A stretch of 6,487 bases of DNA from a virus (Duplodnaviria; Heunggongvirae; Uroviricota; Caudoviricetes), in the IMG/VR virus record IMGVR_UViG_2917886563_000003. One strand, written 5' to 3'. The position numbers were made by a program, and so were the translations under genes. The notes beneath the pieces are model-generated. The model ran no database searches, had not been told where the DNA came from, and was given only the letters and a program-made list of their open reading frames with translations. The stretch's first letter is position 1; each line of letters begins with the position of its first letter. Shown here piece after piece: positions 1 to 6,487 of the stretch.

Positions 1-2
1 TG

Positions 3-361
<359 letters not shown>

Positions 362-370
362 CTCGATCAG

Positions 371-1429
371 ATGAAAGATGTACGGGAGAAGGCTACTAAA
401 TCTTATGATGAGGCTGAATATGTAGTTGATAAGAAAACTGGTAAAGGAGAATGGAAGGGCGGCGATAGCGGCATCAATACTTTAATGAATGAAGGATTCC
501 TAACTAAAAAGGATCTAAAAGACTTTGCTGATAATCCGGCTGGTCTGGTTAGTAAAGCAGTTCAGGGAATGGTAGCTAAAGGCTATTCAGATGCACAAAT
601 CGGTAGTCGTCTGGAAGATCTGGCTGATGATTTGATGCTCACCTCTAAATACTGGACACGCTCCGCTAAAGAAGTGGAACAATCAGCACGAGAACAACGA
701 GAATCAGGGCGCTGGGTAACGCAGGCACAACAGGAAAGCGTTATTAAATTCCGTGAACTGAATAATGCACTTAGTGGGCTTTCTGACTCACAAGGGATCG
801 CCTTTGTTGATGGCTTTATGAAATCTCTTGATCCGAAAGTGATTGAAGAGTTTAAAAAGAGCATGGTTGCAATGCTGCCAATGTTTACCAAATTAGGCGA
901 GGCTGTAGGCGGTCTACTTAATGCGATCATGAAAACTATCAACTGGTTGATGAAAAACGACGAGAAGACGGCAGCTATTCAGAAGAATTTAGGGGATGCA
1001 CCGCCACTATCTAACGAAGGAATGAAACAGAATCTTTCTAATCTCACTCCTGATCAATATAAAGGCGCTGGCACCGGAACAATTAAGCCAGATAACAGCA
1101 ATTCCCTGGTTAACACTATTAAAAGCTGGTTTATGCCAGAAGAAACGGTAGGTGGGGCGCAGGCTGTAAATCAATACAGTCTCGAAGGACAAAACATTGC
1201 AAATCTGAAACAGAGTGCAGCACAACAAGCTCTCAAGGCTCCTTCTTACACCTTTGCACCTGTTATTCACTTCAATCCAGAATTACAAGTAAATGCAGAA
1301 GTGCCGCTAACTATCGAATCAGACACCGGACGATTGAGCGAATTTATCGACTTCAAATCAAAGGCATCCTCCGCTGAGTTTAGCAAGCTATTAACGCTGG
1401 GTGTTATGTCAGGCGGGTCAACCTATTAA
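371..1429 (+). CDS. Hypothetical protein, probably a 5'-truncated gene fragment interrupted by the IS; possibly the C-terminal part of a phage tail tape-measure-like protein (weak)
   Basis: Long open frame ending TAA at 1427-1429. The frame is open back to 332, right through the IS terminus; the first ATG is at 371 with no recognisable Shine-Dalgarno upstream. The protein is rich in K/E/Q/A with likely helical stretches (e.g. LGEAVGGLLNAIMKTINWLMKN) and no catalytic motif I can name. The track's start at 347 is a TTG alternative. Confidence 0.6.
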   Translation: MKDVREKATKSYDEAEYVVDKKTGKGEWKGGDSGINTLMNEGFLTKKDLKDFADNPAGLVSKAVQGMVAKGYSDAQIGSRLEDLADDLMLTSKYWTRSAKEVEQSAREQRESGRWVTQAQQESVIKFRELNNALSGLSDSQGIAFVDGFMKSLDPKVIEEFKKSMVAMLPMFTKLGEAVGGLLNAIMKTINWLMKNDEKTAAIQKNLGDAPPLSNEGMKQNLSNLTPDQYKGAGTGTIKPDNSNSLVNTIKSWFMPEETVGGAQAVNQYSLEGQNIANLKQSAAQQALKAPSYTFAPVIHFNPELQVNAEVPLTIESDTGRLSEFIDFKSKASSAEFSKLLTLGVMSGGSTY

Positions 1430-1476
1430 TCATCGCTGTGGGGCTGTTTAGCCCCCTTAAATAAGGATTACAAATT

Positions 1477-2154
1477 ATGGCAATGGGTCCGTTAACCATT
1501 GGTCGCCCGACTGAGGCGAAAATCAACAGCACAAGCAACGATAGCAACGGTAGAACAACTAAAGGGGGTAACGGCTTTGCGATCATTGCCTCTAACCTCG
1601 GCAGTGGTGCAAATGCTGCTTACAATGACTACCAGGCATTATCATTTGATAGCGTGGAATCGACGAAAATTAGCAGAAATGCAGACGTTACAAGCTATGC
1701 TGTCGAATCAGGATCAGAAGTTAGTGATCATGTTCAAATACGGAATAACAAGTTCACATTACAGGGGCGTATCTCTGAAACCGTATTGAAGCTCAATCCC
1801 GATATGATTAAGAATGCGGGAATTAACGGCAATAGACGTATGCTTATGCTTGAATACCTAAATCAGTTGATGGACAGTCGCCAACCTTTCCTACTTGTCA
1901 CTGAGTTAAAAAATTATGACAACGTTGTGTTAGTGGGTATGGACTTCGAAGAAGAAGCAAGCGAAAGCCTATTGTTTACTCTTGATTTTGAGCAAATCCG
2001 TCTTGTCTCTAAAGCAACTACAAGCGCAATTGCGGTAAAAACAGCACCAAATAAATCTGTAGGAGGCCAGGTTAAAATGCAGGTAAATACAACAGAACAG
2101 AAAAATCAAAAAAGCCCAGGGCAAGACGTTGTAACGCCAGTATTTAAACAATAG
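1477..2154 (+). CDS. Hypothetical protein (225 aa), likely a phage structural/tail-associated protein; function not recognisable
   Basis: ATG at 1477 preceded by AAGGA at 1463-1467 (good RBS spacing). Starts 48 bp after the upstream gene on the same strand, ends TAG at 2152-2154 and is followed by a hairpin terminator. The S/T/N/G-rich composition suggests a beta-rich structural protein. Confidence 0.75.
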   Translation: MAMGPLTIGRPTEAKINSTSNDSNGRTTKGGNGFAIIASNLGSGANAAYNDYQALSFDSVESTKISRNADVTSYAVESGSEVSDHVQIRNNKFTLQGRISETVLKLNPDMIKNAGINGNRRMLMLEYLNQLMDSRQPFLLVTELKNYDNVVLVGMDFEEEASESLLFTLDFEQIRLVSKATTSAIAVKTAPNKSVGGQVKMQVNTTEQKNQKSPGQDVVTPVFKQ

Positions 2155-2195
2155 CCTTAAACGCCTATGAAACGCTCTGTAACGAGATAATCATA

Positions 2196-2227
2196 AAAGA
2201 GGCATCAGTCTATATTGAAGCCTCTTT
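2196..2227. terminator. Probable bidirectional intrinsic terminator between convergent genes
   Basis: Perfect 8-bp inverted repeat AAAGAGGC (2196-2203) / GCCTCTTT (2220-2227) with a 16-nt loop, followed by TTTATT on the plus strand and preceded by AAAA (a T-run on the minus strand). It sits between the stop at 2154 and the integrase stop at 2235. Confidence 0.55.
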
Positions 2228-2234
2228 ATTACGT

Positions 2235-3506
2235 CTATAGCGTTGTTTTACGCCTTAAATTTGATTTTTTATTGATTGATAAGCCTTTCTCTATTTCAGG
2301 GTAGCGTAAAAGCTCAATATATTTTTTAAGCTCTACTGGAGAAGCTGCATTCTTGCTATATGTGCGGAATGTTTCTGTATTGCCGCGCTGATGGCCCAAA
2401 ATTAAGGCTATGCGGTCCTCTGGAATTTGATTTCGATCAAGAAGCTGTGCTACTCCGTGTCTCAGAGAATGAAACACTTTCCTTTCTGTTCCCTTTTCCC
2501 CTAAAGCCTTTCGTTTAGCTCTTGTAAATCGTTGTGTATGCCACGTAGAGCGTTTACCGTCAGCACGCTCTGTAATGCTGGCGTGATAGAACAAAAAGCC
2601 ATTGTGAGGCTTTTCACGAAGAGATAACACCAATGGAGTGATAAGGCTATGCACAGGCACAAGACGTGCCGCAGCTTTCGTTTTTCCCTGTGTGATTTCA
2701 AAACACAGCACACCTTCGATCTCTTTCACATCGTCTATTGTGAGACTTGCTATCTCGTTGATCCGCATCCCTGTATACATTCCGATCAGTGTTATATTTT
2801 GCATTTCTTCTTCATCAGCCAGCATTGAGAACACTTTTGCGAGTTCATCATTGCTAAAGGCTTCATAATTCACCTTGCTACTTTTAGCTTCAAGGCCGTG
2901 ACCTCGCCAAGGATTATCTTGTGGTGCATCGTGATAGCGGTTACGAGCAAGATCCCAGATCTGGGCTAATGCACTGATGTAGTTTTGTATTGTTTGTGGT
3001 GCTTTCTCATTTTTTAGGTCATCTAACCAGCTAGTAACAATAGTTCGGTTAACGTCACGAAGCTGAACATCGCGTTTATTCAGATGTTCTAAGAGCACTT
3101 CTACAGCCTTGTTTGTCTTTGATAGCGTGGTGAGTTTGCGCTTCTCGCTGAACTGGAGAATGTATTGATCACGCATCCTCAAGAGGGAAGGGCAACCAAT
3201 AGAAGAATCATTAAATGATTCAGATACTTGAAATACATATGTTCCAGCTTTCCGTAGTTCTGTAATAATTTGCTCGATCTTCGATGTTTTCTCACGTTGA
3301 GGCTTTAGCTTGTTACGTAGTTTTATCCATTCCAGCGCCACCGCATCACGGAACAACCGTGCTTCTCGAATATCTCTTGTACCCGTGCTCTTAACGTAGC
3401 TGCATCGCCCACCAAATAGATGACGCATATACTTAGGTATAGCGATCCTTACCAGATAGTTTCCGCAAGAATCTGAAATTAAATAGCGATCTCTCTTGAA
3501 ACTCAT
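2235..3506 (-). CDS. int: Site-specific tyrosine recombinase / phage-type integrase (423 aa)
   Basis: Minus-strand ORF with ATG at 3506-3504. The C-terminal catalytic domain has the tyrosine-recombinase signature: box I Arg (TGMRINEIASL), Lys in GKTKAAARLVPVH, box II HSLRHGVAQ, then LGHQRGNTETFRTYSKN carrying the nucleophile Tyr. The N-terminal region resembles an arm/core-binding SAM-like domain of P4-type integrases. Confidence 0.93.
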   Translation of the reverse strand: MSFKRDRYLISDSCGNYLVRIAIPKYMRHLFGGRCSYVKSTGTRDIREARLFRDAVALEWIKLRNKLKPQREKTSKIEQIITELRKAGTYVFQVSESFNDSSIGCPSLLRMRDQYILQFSEKRKLTTLSKTNKAVEVLLEHLNKRDVQLRDVNRTIVTSWLDDLKNEKAPQTIQNYISALAQIWDLARNRYHDAPQDNPWRGHGLEAKSSKVNYEAFSNDELAKVFSMLADEEEMQNITLIGMYTGMRINEIASLTIDDVKEIEGVLCFEITQGKTKAAARLVPVHSLITPLVLSLREKPHNGFLFYHASITERADGKRSTWHTQRFTRAKRKALGEKGTERKVFHSLRHGVAQLLDRNQIPEDRIALILGHQRGNTETFRTYSKNAASPVELKKYIELLRYPEIEKGLSINKKSNLRRKTTL

Positions 3507-3545
3507 ACAAACCCCGGCTATTTTGTCAGGGCTTTTGCACTTGAT

Positions 3546-3573
3546 AGTGTACAGTGTGAAGTGTCGATGTGTT
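3546..3573. repeat. Four tandem heptamers (AGTGTAC AGTGTGA AGTGTCG ATGTGTT) in the int upstream region
   Basis: Read directly from the sequence: three perfect AGTGT cores at 7-bp periodicity plus a degenerate fourth, 40-67 bp upstream of the int start codon and about 70 bp from the tRNA-like core. Confidence 0.5.
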
Positions 3574-3642
3574 GTTAGTTTTGCTTTTGATTCAAAGCAT
3601 TACAGGAGCTTGCTAGGCAAGCGAACGACCGTAGAAATACGT

Positions 3643-3669
3643 GCCGGTTCGAGTCCGGCCTTCGCACCA
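3643..3669 (+). other. tRNA 3'-end-like fragment (T-arm + acceptor 3' strand + CCA); putative att core or island junction, not a complete tRNA gene
   Basis: GCCGG-TTCGAGT-CCGGC forms a canonical T-stem/T-loop (GGTTCGAGTCC), followed by CTTCGCA-CCA. No complementary 5' acceptor strand, D-arm or anticodon arm can be folded from the ~90 nt upstream, so only the 3' part of a tRNA is present. It lies 137 bp upstream of int, on the opposite strand. Confidence 0.5.
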
Positions 3670-3682
3670 AAAGTATGTAAAT

Positions 3683-3707
3683 AGACCTCAACTGAGGTCT
3701 TTTTTTT
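3683..3707 (+). terminator. Rho-independent terminator immediately downstream of the tRNA-like 3' end
   Basis: Stem AGACCTC (3683-3689) / GAGGTCT (3694-3700) with loop AACT, followed by a run of seven T (3701-3707). Confidence 0.7.
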
Positions 3708-3974
3708 ATGCCTGAAATTCACGCCACACAAATCTTTTCCGCTGTTTTTTTCCAACTAACGTCAACCTGGTTCAATCCATATTAAATCCCTTAAGAATAC
3801 CGAACCAAGTATGTTTGCGCTTATCTATTAAGGATTCGGCTCTTTCAGAAAATCTAATCCATCCTCCAGGCACAATATTTATTGCGATCGTGCTCGCATC
3901 GTGGACAATGTTTAATCATAAGTAATATTTACATCAATGAAATCAATGATTTCTATTATGTCACGGAATGGAAA

Positions 3975-6197
3975 ATGGACAGCAATACATTGGGATTCAC
4001 TTCATACTGGCGCAACTCCTTAGCTGACGCCGAATCTGGTAAAGGAACGTTTTCACGTAAAGATATAGATTCATTCATTCGATGGATAAATATCACTGCA
4101 GGGCAGTTGGATGACGAGACTATTCGGGCATTTTTTGACGGTGAAGGGGAGTCGGTAAAAACCGTTGAAGTCGTGTTACGGCCCCAGGTGTGGAACCGCA
4201 TAGTAAAGCATGGCAAAGAGCAAATGGCAGGTGCCCCCGCAATTATCACGCCACTGGTTACCTCCGCTCTTCTGAATAGGGAAGGTTTTTTGTTTCCTGC
4301 TGCTTCAGCCACTATTCCCCGCGATCTGCTTGAACCTCTCCCTTCCGGTCATTTTTCTATTGGTGAGTTGGCTCAATATGACAAATACAAAACCACGCAT
4401 AGCACAGCCACCATTAATGAAGATGAACCAGAACATTACGAAGAAACTGACGAAGAGAAAGCGGAACGCCATGCCAGGTATCGTCAGCATTGGCAAAATT
4501 ATCTTCAACAGTCAGATAACCTTTTAAGAAACGTCGCTGGAAATTGGGTCGCTACATCTGAGCCATACGAACGGGCTGGATACGGTTATATTGTTAAAGC
4601 TAGCCAGCATGTAGGGGCCAGCGTTCATATCCTGCCTATGTATGACCATCTTCTGATGAGTCAGGTTAAGGTTCCGCTATTAACGCGTTTTGCCTCAAAC
4701 GAAATGGCTCCAGTGGAGCCACTTCTCGCTAAGAATGCGATGTTCTGCGAACGTCTGGGGCATTCCGGCGATAAGTTTCCGCTGGCAGTGGCGCAGCGCG
4801 ATGCCCTGAGCCATTATCTGACTCAACAGCAGGGTGATATGCTCGCTGTCAACGGTCCTCCGGGAACGGGTAAAACTACGCTGGTGCTTTCTATTATTGC
4901 CACCGAATGGACAAGAGCCGCACTTAATCAAACTGAACCTCCTGTAATTATTGCCACATCGACTAACAATCAGGCCGTCACCAATATTATTGAAGCCTTT
5001 GGAAAAGATTTCTCTACTGGTTTTGGCGTAATGTCTGGGCGTTGGTTGCCGGAGGTAATAAGCTATGGCGCTTATTTTCCGTCTAAAAGCCGTCAGGTTG
5101 AGGCAGCGAAGAAATACCAGACTGAAGATTTTTTTAACCGCGTTGAATCCCAGGAATATCTGGAAAAAGCCCGGGCCTTTTACCTTGAAAAAGCGGAGGC
5201 GGCGTTTGGAGCTGGAGAGTGCAATTCGCCAGAGCATGTAGTGACGCTTTTGCATGAACGTTTAACTTCACAGTTTATGCAACTTCAGCAAATCGAACCC
5301 GCATGGCGCAGACTCAATGATATCCGCCATGAACAGCGAGTCATCAGTGAGAATCTCGACCAGTATCTTCAGGACAAAAACACACTTCTTCTCAATATTG
5401 GTAATGAAATTTCACTTTTGGCCAGAGGTAAAAAGCAGTGGCAGCAATACCGTGCCGATGAGTCGCTTATGTATGCATTTTTGTCATGGCTCCCTGCTGT
5501 TCGTGCTAAACGCCATTACCAGATTAACCTCTTCCTGGACTCTACGTTCGGCACAAGAATGACAGCGTTCCAGGGAAATTGTCCCGAAGATATTGATAAA
5601 TTTATCGATAGTTTGATCGCTAAAGCACAACAAGAGCAGGCGGTGTGCCAACAGAATATCAACTTTGCGCAGGACATAGCCCGAAGCGAAATGGAAGCAG
5701 CAAAACAATGGCGCGGGTTGACTTATGCTCTGGGCTACAGGGGAGACGATGAGCTGAACCTCGCCGGAGCGGACGAGCTTGCCGATACTCAGATTCGTTT
5801 TCCAGCGTTCTTGTTAGCGACTCATTATTGGGAAGGTCGCTGGCTGATGGATATGGCGGCAATCGATAACCTGCAAAAAGAAAAAGGAATTACCGGGACA
5901 ACTATCGCCGAGGCTCGTTGGCTAAGAAGAATGAAACTTACTCCTTGTGTGGTAATGACCTGCTACATGTTGCCTTACCATATGAACAGGAGAAAATCTT
6001 TTGGTGGGGACAGAACATCGGATAATAATTATTTATATAACTTTGCCGATTTACTGATTGTCGATGAAGCAGGGCAGGTACTCCCGGAGGTTGCTGCGGC
6101 CTCTTTTGCATTGGCGAAGAAAGCACTGGTGATTGGCGATACGGAGCAAATAGCTCCAATCTGGAATGATGTAGCCCCCAGAAACACCGGACAGTAG
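3975..6197 (+). CDS. Large P-loop NTPase with SF1B (Upf1/Dna2/RecD-like) helicase motifs I, Ia, II and III and an uncharacterised N-terminal region; apparently 3'-truncated by the IS2-like insertion (740 aa as read)
   Basis: Open frame from 3882 (TTG) or 3975 (first ATG, preferred) to TAG at 6195-6197. Walker A GPPGTGKTT at 4854-4880; motif Ia-like PPVIIATSTNNQAVTNIIEAF; Walker B/motif II LLIVDEAGQ (DEAGQ at 6063-6077); motif III VIGDTEQIAPIW at 6129-6164. The ORF stops 10 codons after motif III with no motifs IV-VI, and the stop lies within or at the edge of the IS2-like left terminus. Confidence 0.8.
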   Translation: MDSNTLGFTSYWRNSLADAESGKGTFSRKDIDSFIRWINITAGQLDDETIRAFFDGEGESVKTVEVVLRPQVWNRIVKHGKEQMAGAPAIITPLVTSALLNREGFLFPAASATIPRDLLEPLPSGHFSIGELAQYDKYKTTHSTATINEDEPEHYEETDEEKAERHARYRQHWQNYLQQSDNLLRNVAGNWVATSEPYERAGYGYIVKASQHVGASVHILPMYDHLLMSQVKVPLLTRFASNEMAPVEPLLAKNAMFCERLGHSGDKFPLAVAQRDALSHYLTQQQGDMLAVNGPPGTGKTTLVLSIIATEWTRAALNQTEPPVIIATSTNNQAVTNIIEAFGKDFSTGFGVMSGRWLPEVISYGAYFPSKSRQVEAAKKYQTEDFFNRVESQEYLEKARAFYLEKAEAAFGAGECNSPEHVVTLLHERLTSQFMQLQQIEPAWRRLNDIRHEQRVISENLDQYLQDKNTLLLNIGNEISLLARGKKQWQQYRADESLMYAFLSWLPAVRAKRHYQINLFLDSTFGTRMTAFQGNCPEDIDKFIDSLIAKAQQEQAVCQQNINFAQDIARSEMEAAKQWRGLTYALGYRGDDELNLAGADELADTQIRFPAFLLATHYWEGRWLMDMAAIDNLQKEKGITGTTIAEARWLRRMKLTPCVVMTCYMLPYHMNRRKSFGGDRTSDNNYLYNFADLLIVDEAGQVLPEVAAASFALAKKALVIGDTEQIAPIWNDVAPRNTGQ

Positions 6198-6487
6198 CTG
6201 TATCTCCAGATAAGAGATAGGCTTGAATATATGTCTAACACTAACGCCAATTTTGAGATGACCGGGATCCTGTTAGGGCAAGAAGTCCGTAAACGTAAAA
6301 CTCCTCAGGAGAAAATCGCCATTATCCAGCAGAACGATGGAGCCGGGTATGAATGTCTCCCATGTCGCCCGCCTGCATGGTATCCAGCCCAGCCTGCTGT
6401 TTAAATGGAAGAAGCAATATCAGGAAGGCAGCCTCACCGCCGTTGCGGCCGGAGAGGAAGTCGTTCCTGCTTCTGAGCTTACAGCTG
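6172..6487 (+). mobile_element. Left-hand portion of an IS3-family, IS2-group insertion sequence; continues beyond the right window edge
   Basis: The region 6172-6230 contains TAGCCCCCAG...CTGTATCTCCAGATAAG, resembling the IS2 left terminal repeat as recalled (TAGACTGGCCCCCTGAATCTCCAGACAA). It is followed by an orfA-like reading frame whose product aligns with IS2 InsC. The left boundary is uncertain, somewhere in 6167-6195. Confidence 0.75.
6258..6487 (+). pseudogene. IS2-like transposase OrfA (HTH DNA-binding protein), apparently frameshifted; 3' end outside the window
   Basis: From ATG 6258 (or 6231) the frame reads [26 protein letters not shown], then runs into [22 protein letters not shown] (stop 6402-6404). 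From 6337 the +1 frame reads [50 protein letters not shown] to the window end. Both halves match IS2 InsC as recalled ([65 protein letters not shown]), implying a 1-nt insertion near 6336-6340 (GATGGAG). Confidence 0.65.

What the first reader, a model, noticed from the sequence alone, without database searches (positions are those of the whole stretch)
6160..6200. Junction between helicase-like gene and IS2-like element: stop codon apparently supplied by the IS
The TAG stop at 6195-6197 lies inside sequence resembling the IS2 left terminal repeat (TAGCCCCCAG...TAGCTGTATCTCCAGATAAG). The last 1-8 codons of the ORF are therefore probably IS-derived, which is the classic signature of insertional truncation. 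The exact insertion point cannot be fixed from this window alone; candidates are about 6172 and about 6195.
Basis: partly seen in the sequence, partly recalled or inferred. Interest (0 to 1): 0.5.

Follow-up and report, generated by a model that had tools for sequence, protein, structure and literature searches.

The report
IS insertion truncating Mokosh defence gene yjhR
A common 1.3-kb mobile element (an IS2 relative, probably ISEcl1) has landed inside the anti-phage helicase-nuclease gene yjhR (type II Mokosh), cutting it after 731 of 1171 codons and supplying nine junk codons and the stop; this is an ordinary gene knock-out by a jumping gene.

Summary
The ORF ending at TAG 6195-6197 is yjhR. 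An intact E. coli copy (1171 aa) matches the PADLOC MkoC model (type II Mokosh) end to end. The window matches intact yjhR up to base 6166/6167 and then diverges. From 6167 (TGATGTAGCCCCC...) it is 98% identical to the left end of a 1336-bp IS3-family, IS2-group element found in more than 1600 enterobacterial plasmids and about 150 E. coli genomes.

The IS terminus is therefore 6167, not 6172 or 6195. Nine sense codons (DVAPRNTGQ) and the stop are IS-encoded. The truncated product keeps Walker A, DEAGQ and GDTEQ. It loses the second RecA-like domain (AAA_12) and the PLD nuclease, so it is almost certainly inactive.

The element is not IS2 (66-69% nt identity). It is probably ISEcl1, but I could not test this against ISfinder. 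The expected 3-5 bp target duplication is wrong for it: 12 of 12 independent full copies carry perfect 15- or 16-bp duplications. The other end of the IS lies outside the window and was not found in any collection, so simple insertion and IS-associated deletion cannot be told apart. Both parts are known, and interest is low.

The parts
3975..6166 (+). 5' 62% of yjhR (type II Mokosh, mkoC-like): codons 1-730 plus the first two bases of codon N731. Contains Walker A (aa 294), DEAGQ (aa 697) and GDTEQ (aa 721).
   Evidence: 99.1% nt identity to annotated 'helicase YjhR' in 6 E. coli genomes. The start at 3975 is taken from PGAP's annotation of L001. There are 7 aa differences in 731 residues. PADLOC MkoC scores 829.7 bits, aa 1-731 against profile positions 1-711 of 1136. 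Pfam finds AAA_11, AAA_30 and AAA_19 only.
6151..6166 (.). Predicted left copy of the target-site duplication: AGCTCCAATCTGGAA (15 bp, 6152-6166) or TAGCTCCAATCTGGAA (16 bp, 6151-6166).
   Evidence: Inference from 12 of 12 independent copies of the same IS carrying perfect 15- or 16-bp duplications and one empty-site check. The right copy is outside the window and was not found.
6167..6487 (+). Left 321 nt of a 1336-bp IS3-family, IS2-group insertion sequence (probably ISEcl1), in the same orientation as yjhR. It runs off the end of the window.
   Evidence: 98.1% identity over the full length to many copies. Boundaries come from 13 full copies. 66-69% nt identity to IS2.
6167..6214 (+). Left terminal inverted-repeat region of the IS (TGATGTAGCCCCCAGAAACACCGGACAGTAGCTGTATCTCCAGATAAG). 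It has A at 6180 where all other copies examined have T.
   Evidence: Alignment with full copies and with the IS2 left end.
6168..6197 (+). IS-encoded tail of the truncated ORF: GAT GTA GCC CCC AGA AAC ACC GGA CAG TAG = DVAPRNTGQ*.
   Evidence: Translation. Intact YjhR continues ...IWNCLPVTDMGNMLEE at this point.
6258..6404 (+). Start of IS orfA (the HTH_Tnp_1 protein in intact copies). Here it is frameshifted by one extra A near 6333 and ends prematurely at 6404.
   Evidence: Alignment to the consensus copy shows 5 substitutions and a 1-nt insertion. PGAP's CDS start in full copies maps to 6258. The 48-aa product has no Pfam hit, whereas intact OrfA hits HTH_Tnp_1.
1..361 (+). Right end of a different IS3-family element (ends ...TGACCACTACA at 361). 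Together with the IS at 6167 it brackets the 5.8-kb unique segment.
   Evidence: 99.7% identity to 'IS3 family transposase' loci in 64 E. coli genomes, with the match stopping at 361.

Best explanation
A copy-out/paste-in IS3-family element of the IS2 group (1336 bp, probably ISEcl1) inserted into the anti-phage gene yjhR (type II Mokosh, a single-polypeptide Upf1-like helicase plus PLD nuclease). The insertion lies between window bases 6166 and 6167, three codons after helicase motif III.

Shown:
- The gene's frame reads straight into the IS left inverted repeat.
- It picks up nine unrelated codons and stops at the first in-frame stop, TAG, at IS positions 29-31.

Inferred:
- The product (731 YjhR residues plus DVAPRNTGQ) lacks the second RecA-like domain and the PLD nuclease, so it cannot provide Mokosh defence.
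- The insertion should have duplicated 15-16 bp of target ((T)AGCTCCAATCTGGAA), and the 3' 440 codons should follow the far end of the IS unless they were later deleted.
For: - Window 3800-6167 is 99.1% identical to intact yjhR, with the match ending at 6167.
- The IS match starts at 6167 in most of the copies listed.
- All 13 full copies examined begin TGATG after unrelated flanks.
- Intact YjhR is 1171 aa. It matches PADLOC MkoC at 1471.6 bits end to end and has AAA_11, AAA_12 (795-969) and PLDc_2 (1028-1141).
- The window product matches MkoC only to profile position 711 of 1136 and has no AAA_12 or PLD hit.
- Cury et al. (bioRxiv 10.1101/2022.12.12.520048) treat E. coli YjhR as a fused MkoA+MkoB Mokosh.
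- Millman et al. (bioRxiv 10.1101/2022.05.11.491447) report that mutations in the helicase ATP-binding domain or in the PLD active site abolish Mokosh defence.
- An independent assembly (Logan contig from SRR8835208) has the same junction.
- IS family assignment: OrfA has HTH_Tnp_1 and OrfB has HTH_21/rve/rve_3. Amino-acid identity to IS2 is 75% for InsC and 63% for InsD. PGAP annotates 'IS3 family transposase, programmed frameshift'.
Against: - The right end of the IS and the 3' part of yjhR are not in the window. They were not found in genome contigs, metagenome contigs or the protein database, so a simple insertion with a target duplication is not demonstrated for this locus.
- The window is bracketed by two IS ends. 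That fits a repeat-bounded contig but also a rearranged region.
- The Logan run may be the same data the window was assembled from, so it may not be a biologically independent sample.
- Loss of function is inferred from domain content and was not measured.
Confidence: 0.9

Rival explanations
1. The IS did insert here, but the 3' part of yjhR is no longer adjacent to its other end. An IS-mediated adjacent deletion, or recombination between IS copies, removed or relocated it. The junction would then be a deletion or rearrangement endpoint rather than one side of a simple insertion.
For: - The unique 5.8-kb segment is flanked by ends of two different IS3-family elements.
- Several copies of this IS or its relatives lack any target duplication: L002, L031, L032 and L033. 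Secondary rearrangements at such copies are therefore common.
- yjhR is often found as fragments, for example the 338-codon K-12 pseudogene and clusters of 338-aa and 397-aa C-terminal fragments.
- No right-junction sequence was found anywhere.
Against: - 12 of the 13 independent copies of this IS examined are simple insertions with perfect duplications.
- Failure to find the right junction is expected if the source strain is simply absent from the collections searched.
Confidence: 0.25
2. Assembly artefact: the contig was wrongly joined to a repeated IS, and yjhR is intact in the real genome.
For: The window begins and ends in repeated IS sequence, which is typical of short-read contigs that break or mis-join at repeats.
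Against: - yjhR and the IS share only one base at the join, so there is no repeat that could mislead an assembler.
- A separate k-mer-based Logan assembly of SRR8835208 reproduces the join and extends 28 nt into the IS.
- The IS boundary coincides exactly with the true terminus defined by 13 other copies, as expected for real transposition.
Confidence: 0.03
3. The IS terminus is at about 6172 or about 6195, so only 1-8 codons or only the stop codon come from the IS.
For: The tip of the IS resembles IS2 only loosely. A second IS2-like block (TAGCTGTATCTCCAGATAAG) starts at 6195.
Against: - Identity with all other copies of the element starts at 6167 and is continuous through 6172 and 6195.
- Identity with intact yjhR ends at 6167.
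Confidence: 0.01

Closest known systems
IS2 (E. coli K-12 IS2A, 1331 bp; IS3 family, IS2 group)
   Same: - Similar size and layout: orfA (HTH) and orfB (DDE/rve), with a programmed frameshift annotated.
- Related terminal repeats (GCCCCC near the tip, an ATCTCCAGA box, right end ...CA).
- 75% (InsC) and 63% (InsD) amino-acid identity.
   Different: - Only 66-69% nt identity, too low for the same IS.
- The left end has about 20 extra bases between the tip and the ATCTCCAGA box.
- The target duplication is 15-16 bp, against 5 bp (ATTAC) at IS2A.
ISEcl1 (IS3 family, first named in Enterobacter cloacae)
   Same: - Published length is 1336 bp, IS3 family (PMC5001619), identical to the length of the full copies here.
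- It is reported as an IS1X1-ISEcl1 module on Klebsiella IncFIB plasmids (PMC7319535). Copies here lie next to IS1X2 and are most common on Klebsiella plasmids.
- One ISEcl1 insertion upstream of qnrS1 was reported with 14-bp direct repeats (PMC10913469), which is unusually long, like the 15-16 bp seen here.
   Different: The identification is circumstantial. No ISfinder reference sequence was available for alignment. The window copy is a 98.1% variant with a frameshifted orfA.
Type II Mokosh (MkoC) / E. coli YjhR
   Same: The window ORF is the N-terminal 731 residues of YjhR, 99% identical to annotated YjhR. The intact protein matches the MkoC profile end to end and has the helicase plus PLD architecture that defines type II Mokosh.
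   Different: The window copy lacks AAA_12 (RecA2) and the PLD domain, so it is a pseudogene fragment and not a working system.
yjhR pseudogene of E. coli K-12 (b4308)
   Same: It is another decayed yjhR allele, lying next to nanS-nanM as intact yjhR does in strain 18KM2445.
   Different: K-12 keeps only a 3' fragment of 1017 nt (338 codons). The window keeps only the 5' 731 codons. These are independent inactivation events.

Membership tests
IS3 family (IS2 group) | Transposase of the DDE/rve type made from two overlapping ORFs (orfA with an HTH, orfB with the catalytic core) by programmed -1 frameshifting. | tested here: met
   In full copies, OrfA hits HTH_Tnp_1 and OrfB hits HTH_21, rve and rve_3. 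PGAP annotates 'IS3 family transposase, programmed frameshift'. Identity to IS2 is 75% (InsC) and 63% (InsD). The window itself holds only the first part of orfA, which is frameshifted.
IS3 family (IS2 group) | Imperfect terminal inverted repeats ending 5'-TG...CA-3'. | tested here: met
   The left end is TGATGTAGCCCCC... at 6167. The right end of full copies is ...GGGTCAAGATCA. The reverse complement of the right end, TGATCTTGACCC..., pairs imperfectly with the left end.
IS3 family (IS2 group) | Short target-site duplication (3-5 bp is my recollection of the usual range for the family, not checked; 5 bp for IS2). | tested here: not met
   12 of 12 independent insertions have 15-bp (6) or 16-bp (6) perfect duplications. 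One was confirmed against the empty ydeE site. IS2A shows 5 bp. A 78%-identical relative also shows 15/16 bp. This is a departure from the usual family behaviour, not grounds for exclusion, because transposase homology defines the family.
IS2 itself | Near-identity to the IS2 reference (my recollection of ISfinder practice: isoforms share about 95% or more nt identity). | tested here: not met
   66% identity in a global alignment and 69.5% in the best local alignment to K-12 IS2A.
ISEcl1 | Sequence identity to the ISfinder ISEcl1 reference. | not testable with these tools
   Only indirect agreement: the 1336-bp length, the IS1X association and long direct repeats. A published primer said to lie in the ISEcl2-qnrS1 region is absent from the element, which weakly argues against ISEcl2.
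Type II Mokosh (MkoC) | A single polypeptide with an N-terminal Upf1-like (COG1112) helicase and a C-terminal PLD-family nuclease. | tested here: not met
   The feature is met by the intact homologue (L001: AAA_11, AAA_12, PLDc_2, HxK at 1114; MkoC 1471.6 bits). It is not met by the window copy, which stops at profile position 711 of 1136 and has no AAA_12 or PLD.
Type II Mokosh (MkoC) | Confers resistance to phage infection. | not testable with these tools
   Defence was shown for Mokosh systems by Millman et al.. This allele was not assayed.

The most novel reading that the evidence does not exclude
The inserted element belongs to a lineage inside the IS2 group (ISEcl1-like, plus relatives at about 78% identity) whose integration stagger is 15-16 bp instead of the 5 bp of IS2. 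That is one helical turn longer, which implies a different geometry of the transpososome on target DNA. Apart from one passing remark about '14-bp DRs', I found no description or mechanistic study of this in the searchable literature.
Probability: 0.4. Interest if true: 0.45.

Novelty: already known. Interest (0 to 1): 0.2.

Why it matters
For the finding itself, the junction identifies a naturally inactivated type II Mokosh anti-phage gene and shows exactly where the gene stops being gene and starts being IS. That matters for annotation: the 740-aa ORF should be called a pseudogene, not a helicase. It adds one more example of mobile elements eroding defence islands, alongside the independently decayed yjhR of K-12.

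The only point with wider reach is the side observation. This very common plasmid-borne IS makes 15-16-bp target duplications. Anyone who looks for its insertion sites using the 3-5 bp rule will miss or mis-call them. The one-helical-turn difference from IS2 could also be used to study what sets the stagger in copy-out/paste-in transposases.

Tried and rejected
- Right junction and source genome:
  - One genome-contig scan with the C-terminal 440 aa of YjhR returned only intact or unrelated loci.
  - Two metagenome scans, with the predicted right-junction and the observed left-junction patterns, returned nothing.
  - A search of the 5.8-billion-protein database with the C-terminal part returned many YjhR fragments, but none at 99% identity starting at the junction.
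  - An exact look-up of the 740-aa product found one 2.6-kb Logan contig that ends inside the IS. The same sequence is not in the 15-billion-protein collection.
- Plasmid origin of yjhR: no match in PLSDB.
- Naming the IS: PGAP gives only 'IS3 family transposase'. A published primer said to lie in the ISEcl2-qnrS1 region is absent from the element. ISEcl1 fits circumstantially but could not be verified.
- Literature on long duplications in the IS3 family: three term searches found nothing relevant, and one search was badly designed. A fifth found the single '14-bp DRs' remark.
- Using the end of the Logan contig (window 6194) to infer the repeat boundary from k = 31: rejected, because the end can be shifted by chance flank matches of other IS copies.
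- Closer IS copies carrying the same orfA frameshift: none at 99% or above in complete E. coli genomes.
- tRNA scan of the window, to look for an integration site: none found.
Full report
**What is in the sequence.** The ORF that ends with TAG at 6195-6197 runs from 3882. By homology with annotated genes it starts at ATG 3975. Its last residues are ...VIGDTEQIAPIWN-DVAPRNTGQ*. Downstream lies the start of a transposase orfA.

**The gene.**
- Window 3800-6167 is 99.1% identical to 'helicase YjhR' in six complete E. coli genomes and 94.5-94.7% identical in seven more. All 13 alignments stop at window base 6167. There is no plasmid match.
- In E. coli 18KM2445 the intact gene encodes 1171 aa. It sits among DNA methylase and restriction endonuclease genes, upstream of nanS-nanM-nanC.
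- The intact protein has AAA_11 (273-344), AAA_12 (795-969) and PLDc_2 (1028-1141). Walker A is at 294, DEAGQ at 697, GDTEQ at 721 and an HxK motif at 1114.
- It matches the PADLOC MkoC profile end to end at 1471.6 bits.
- Millman et al. define type II Mokosh as a single gene with an N-terminal helicase and a C-terminal PLD nuclease. They report that mutants in the ATP-binding domain or the PLD active site lose defence.
- Intact orthologues also occur in Escherichia sp. E1V33 (99%) and in another E. coli (88%). More distant ones (65-76%) occur in Buttiauxella, Pantoea, Tatumella and an unnamed Enterobacterales isolate.

**The junction.**
- A base-by-base comparison shows the window identical to intact yjhR through ...CTGGAAT (6167) and unrelated after that. 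It is unrelated to the IS before 6167 and identical to it from TGATGTAGCCCCC onward.
- T6167 is common to both alignments. However, 13 full copies of the element from E. coli chromosomes and from Escherichia, Klebsiella, Enterobacter and Leclercia plasmids all begin TGATG after unrelated flanking bases. The IS therefore begins at 6167 and the target ends at 6166.
- In the yjhR frame, codon 731 (AAT) takes its third base from the IS. Nine IS-encoded codons and the stop follow.
- The window product matches MkoC only over residues 1-731, profile positions 1-711 of 1136. It has no AAA_12 or PLD hit.
- The insertion lies three codons after helicase motif III. The second RecA-like domain and the nuclease are therefore missing. 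Since both activities are required for Mokosh defence, loss of function is the clear inference, although it was not measured.

**Is the junction real?**
- The two sequences share a single base at the join, so a repeat-induced mis-join is implausible.
- A Logan contig assembled independently from run SRR8835208 carries the same yjhR allele and the same join, and ends 28 nt into the IS. That run may be the source of the window, so it counts as an independent assembly but not necessarily as an independent strain.

**The element.**
- Full copies are 1336 bp and end ...GGGTCAAGATCA.
- OrfA has HTH_Tnp_1. OrfB has HTH_21, rve and rve_3. PGAP calls the product an IS3 family transposase with a programmed frameshift.
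- Against K-12 IS2A the element is 66% identical globally and 69.5% locally. InsC is 75% identical and InsD 63%. It is therefore an IS2-group relative and not IS2.
- Its left end carries about 20 extra bases between the GCCCCC tip and the ATCTCCAGA box.
- It occurs in 1642 PLSDB plasmids, 1366 of them from Klebsiella, and in about 150 complete E. coli genomes, with up to 15 copies per genome.
- It is probably ISEcl1. That IS is listed as 1336 bp and IS3 family (PMC5001619). It forms an IS1X1-ISEcl1 module on Klebsiella IncFIB plasmids (PMC7319535), and copies here abut IS1X2. I could not align it to an ISfinder reference, so the name remains an inference.

**Target duplication.**
For this element that expectation is wrong.
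- Twelve independent full copies carry perfect direct repeats of 15 bp (six cases) or 16 bp (six cases), all with different sequences. One plasmid copy has none.
- For the ydeE insertion, I rebuilt the site with a single copy of the 15-mer. It matches 100% over 400 nt in single pieces in the best hits, and 5397 of 5426 E. coli genomes hold at least 80% of it. The repeat is therefore a true target duplication.
- IS2A in K-12 shows the expected 5 bp, ATTAC.
- A relative at about 78% identity, inserted in a porin gene, also shows a 15/16-bp duplication. Three other diverged copies show none.
- One paper mentions an ISEcl1 insertion 'flanked by two 14-bp DRs' (PMC10913469). Otherwise I found no discussion of this property.
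- The difference from IS2 is about one helical turn. I suggest, as inference only, that the two strand transfers occur on the same face of the target one turn further apart.
- For this locus the predicted far junction is ...GGGTCAAGATCA + (T)AGCTCCAATCTGGAA + TTGTCTACCCG.... With a 15-bp duplication, an ATG in the IS right end would be in frame with the 3' part of yjhR (MEGQDQAPIWN...). Whether such an ORF exists or is expressed is unknown.

**What could not be settled.** The window ends 321 nt into the IS. The far junction was not found in species-representative genomes, JGI metagenome contigs or the protein database. The source is not among the complete E. coli genomes. I therefore cannot distinguish a simple insertion from an insertion followed by deletion or rearrangement. 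I give the latter about 0.25. The window also starts inside the right end of a different IS3-family element, and copies lacking duplications exist.

**State of this IS copy.** Compared with the common sequence, the window copy has five substitutions, one of them in the terminal repeat (A6180), and one extra A near 6333. The extra A frameshifts orfA, so the ORF stops at 6404. If it is not a sequencing error, this copy cannot make its own transposase.

**Verdict.** The observation and the interpretation are correct in substance, and the coordinates are now fixed: target to 6166, IS from 6167, IS-encoded tail and stop at 6168-6197. Both components are known (yjhR/type II Mokosh and a widespread IS2-group element), and the event is a routine insertional knock-out, so interest is low. 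The one feature worth passing on is the long target duplication of this IS lineage.

Noticed in passing
L015-L020, L024-L030 (full IS copies); bears on window 6151-6166: The inserted IS (IS2 group, probably ISEcl1) makes perfect 15- or 16-bp target-site duplications in 12 of 12 independent insertions (six of each). IS2 makes 5 bp. One case was verified against the empty ydeE site. A relative at about 78% identity (L034) shows the same. The only literature trace I found is a remark about '14-bp DRs' flanking ISEcl1 (PMC10913469).
   Followed up: yes
window 1-361: The window begins inside the right end of a different IS3-family element (ends ...TGACCACTACA at 361; 99.7% identical to copies in 64 E. 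coli genomes). The 5.8-kb unique segment is therefore bracketed by two IS ends. ORF 347-1429 starts inside that IS end, so its gene may also be 5'-truncated.
   Followed up: partly
window 6180 and about 6333 (orfA 6258-6404): This IS copy is a 98.1% variant. It has A instead of T in the terminal repeat at 6180 and one extra A (CAGCAGAACG against CAGCAGACG) that frameshifts orfA. The copy is probably defective, or the extra A is a sequencing error. No copy at 99% identity or above exists in complete E. coli genomes.
   Followed up: partly
window 362-3721 versus 3647-6167: The window is a mosaic. A tyrosine integrase (2238-3506, minus strand), a Dit-like phage tail protein (1477-2151) and a hypothetical gene occur together in other E. 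coli without yjhR. In those E. coli that have it, the yjhR module sits instead next to methylase and restriction genes and nanS-nanM-nanC. This looks like a variable defence-island hotspot.
   Followed up: partly
L021 4016-5032 (E. coli K-12 yjhR, b4308); P0012, P0004: yjhR decays repeatedly. K-12 keeps only a 338-codon 3' fragment. The protein database holds large clusters of C-terminal fragments (338 aa with 1335 members; 397 aa with 695 members). The window keeps only the 5' part.
   Followed up: partly
predicted right junction (not in window): If the duplication is 15 bp, an ATG in the IS right end (GAGATGGAGGG) falls in frame with the 3' 440 codons of yjhR (MEGQDQAPIWNCLPV...). A C-terminal RecA2+PLD fragment could then be translated. 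With 16 bp it is not in frame.
   Followed up: no
L003 (Logan SRR8835208_334), equivalent to window 3635-6194: The only other public contig with this junction ends exactly at the last sense codon before the TAG. Its partial gene product therefore happens to equal the full 740-aa truncated protein.
   Followed up: no
L033 about 1600-1660: A relative of the IS at about 78% identity sits with its right end one base from the left terminal repeat of an IS2 copy (…GGGGCAAGAACA G TAGACTGGCCCCCTGAATCTCC…). Several target sites of the main IS end in CTGGAA(T), CTGAAT or GGAATG. This hints at a preference for sequences resembling IS ends, but the sample is too small to test.
   Followed up: no
IS right terminus in full copies (…AAGATCA): The right end of the IS contains a GATC (Dam) site. 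A Klebsiella methylome paper reports a consistently unmethylated GATC just downstream of an IS3-family (IS2 group) transposase gene on IncFIB plasmids (PMC7985491). This may be the same element, but I did not check.
   Followed up: no
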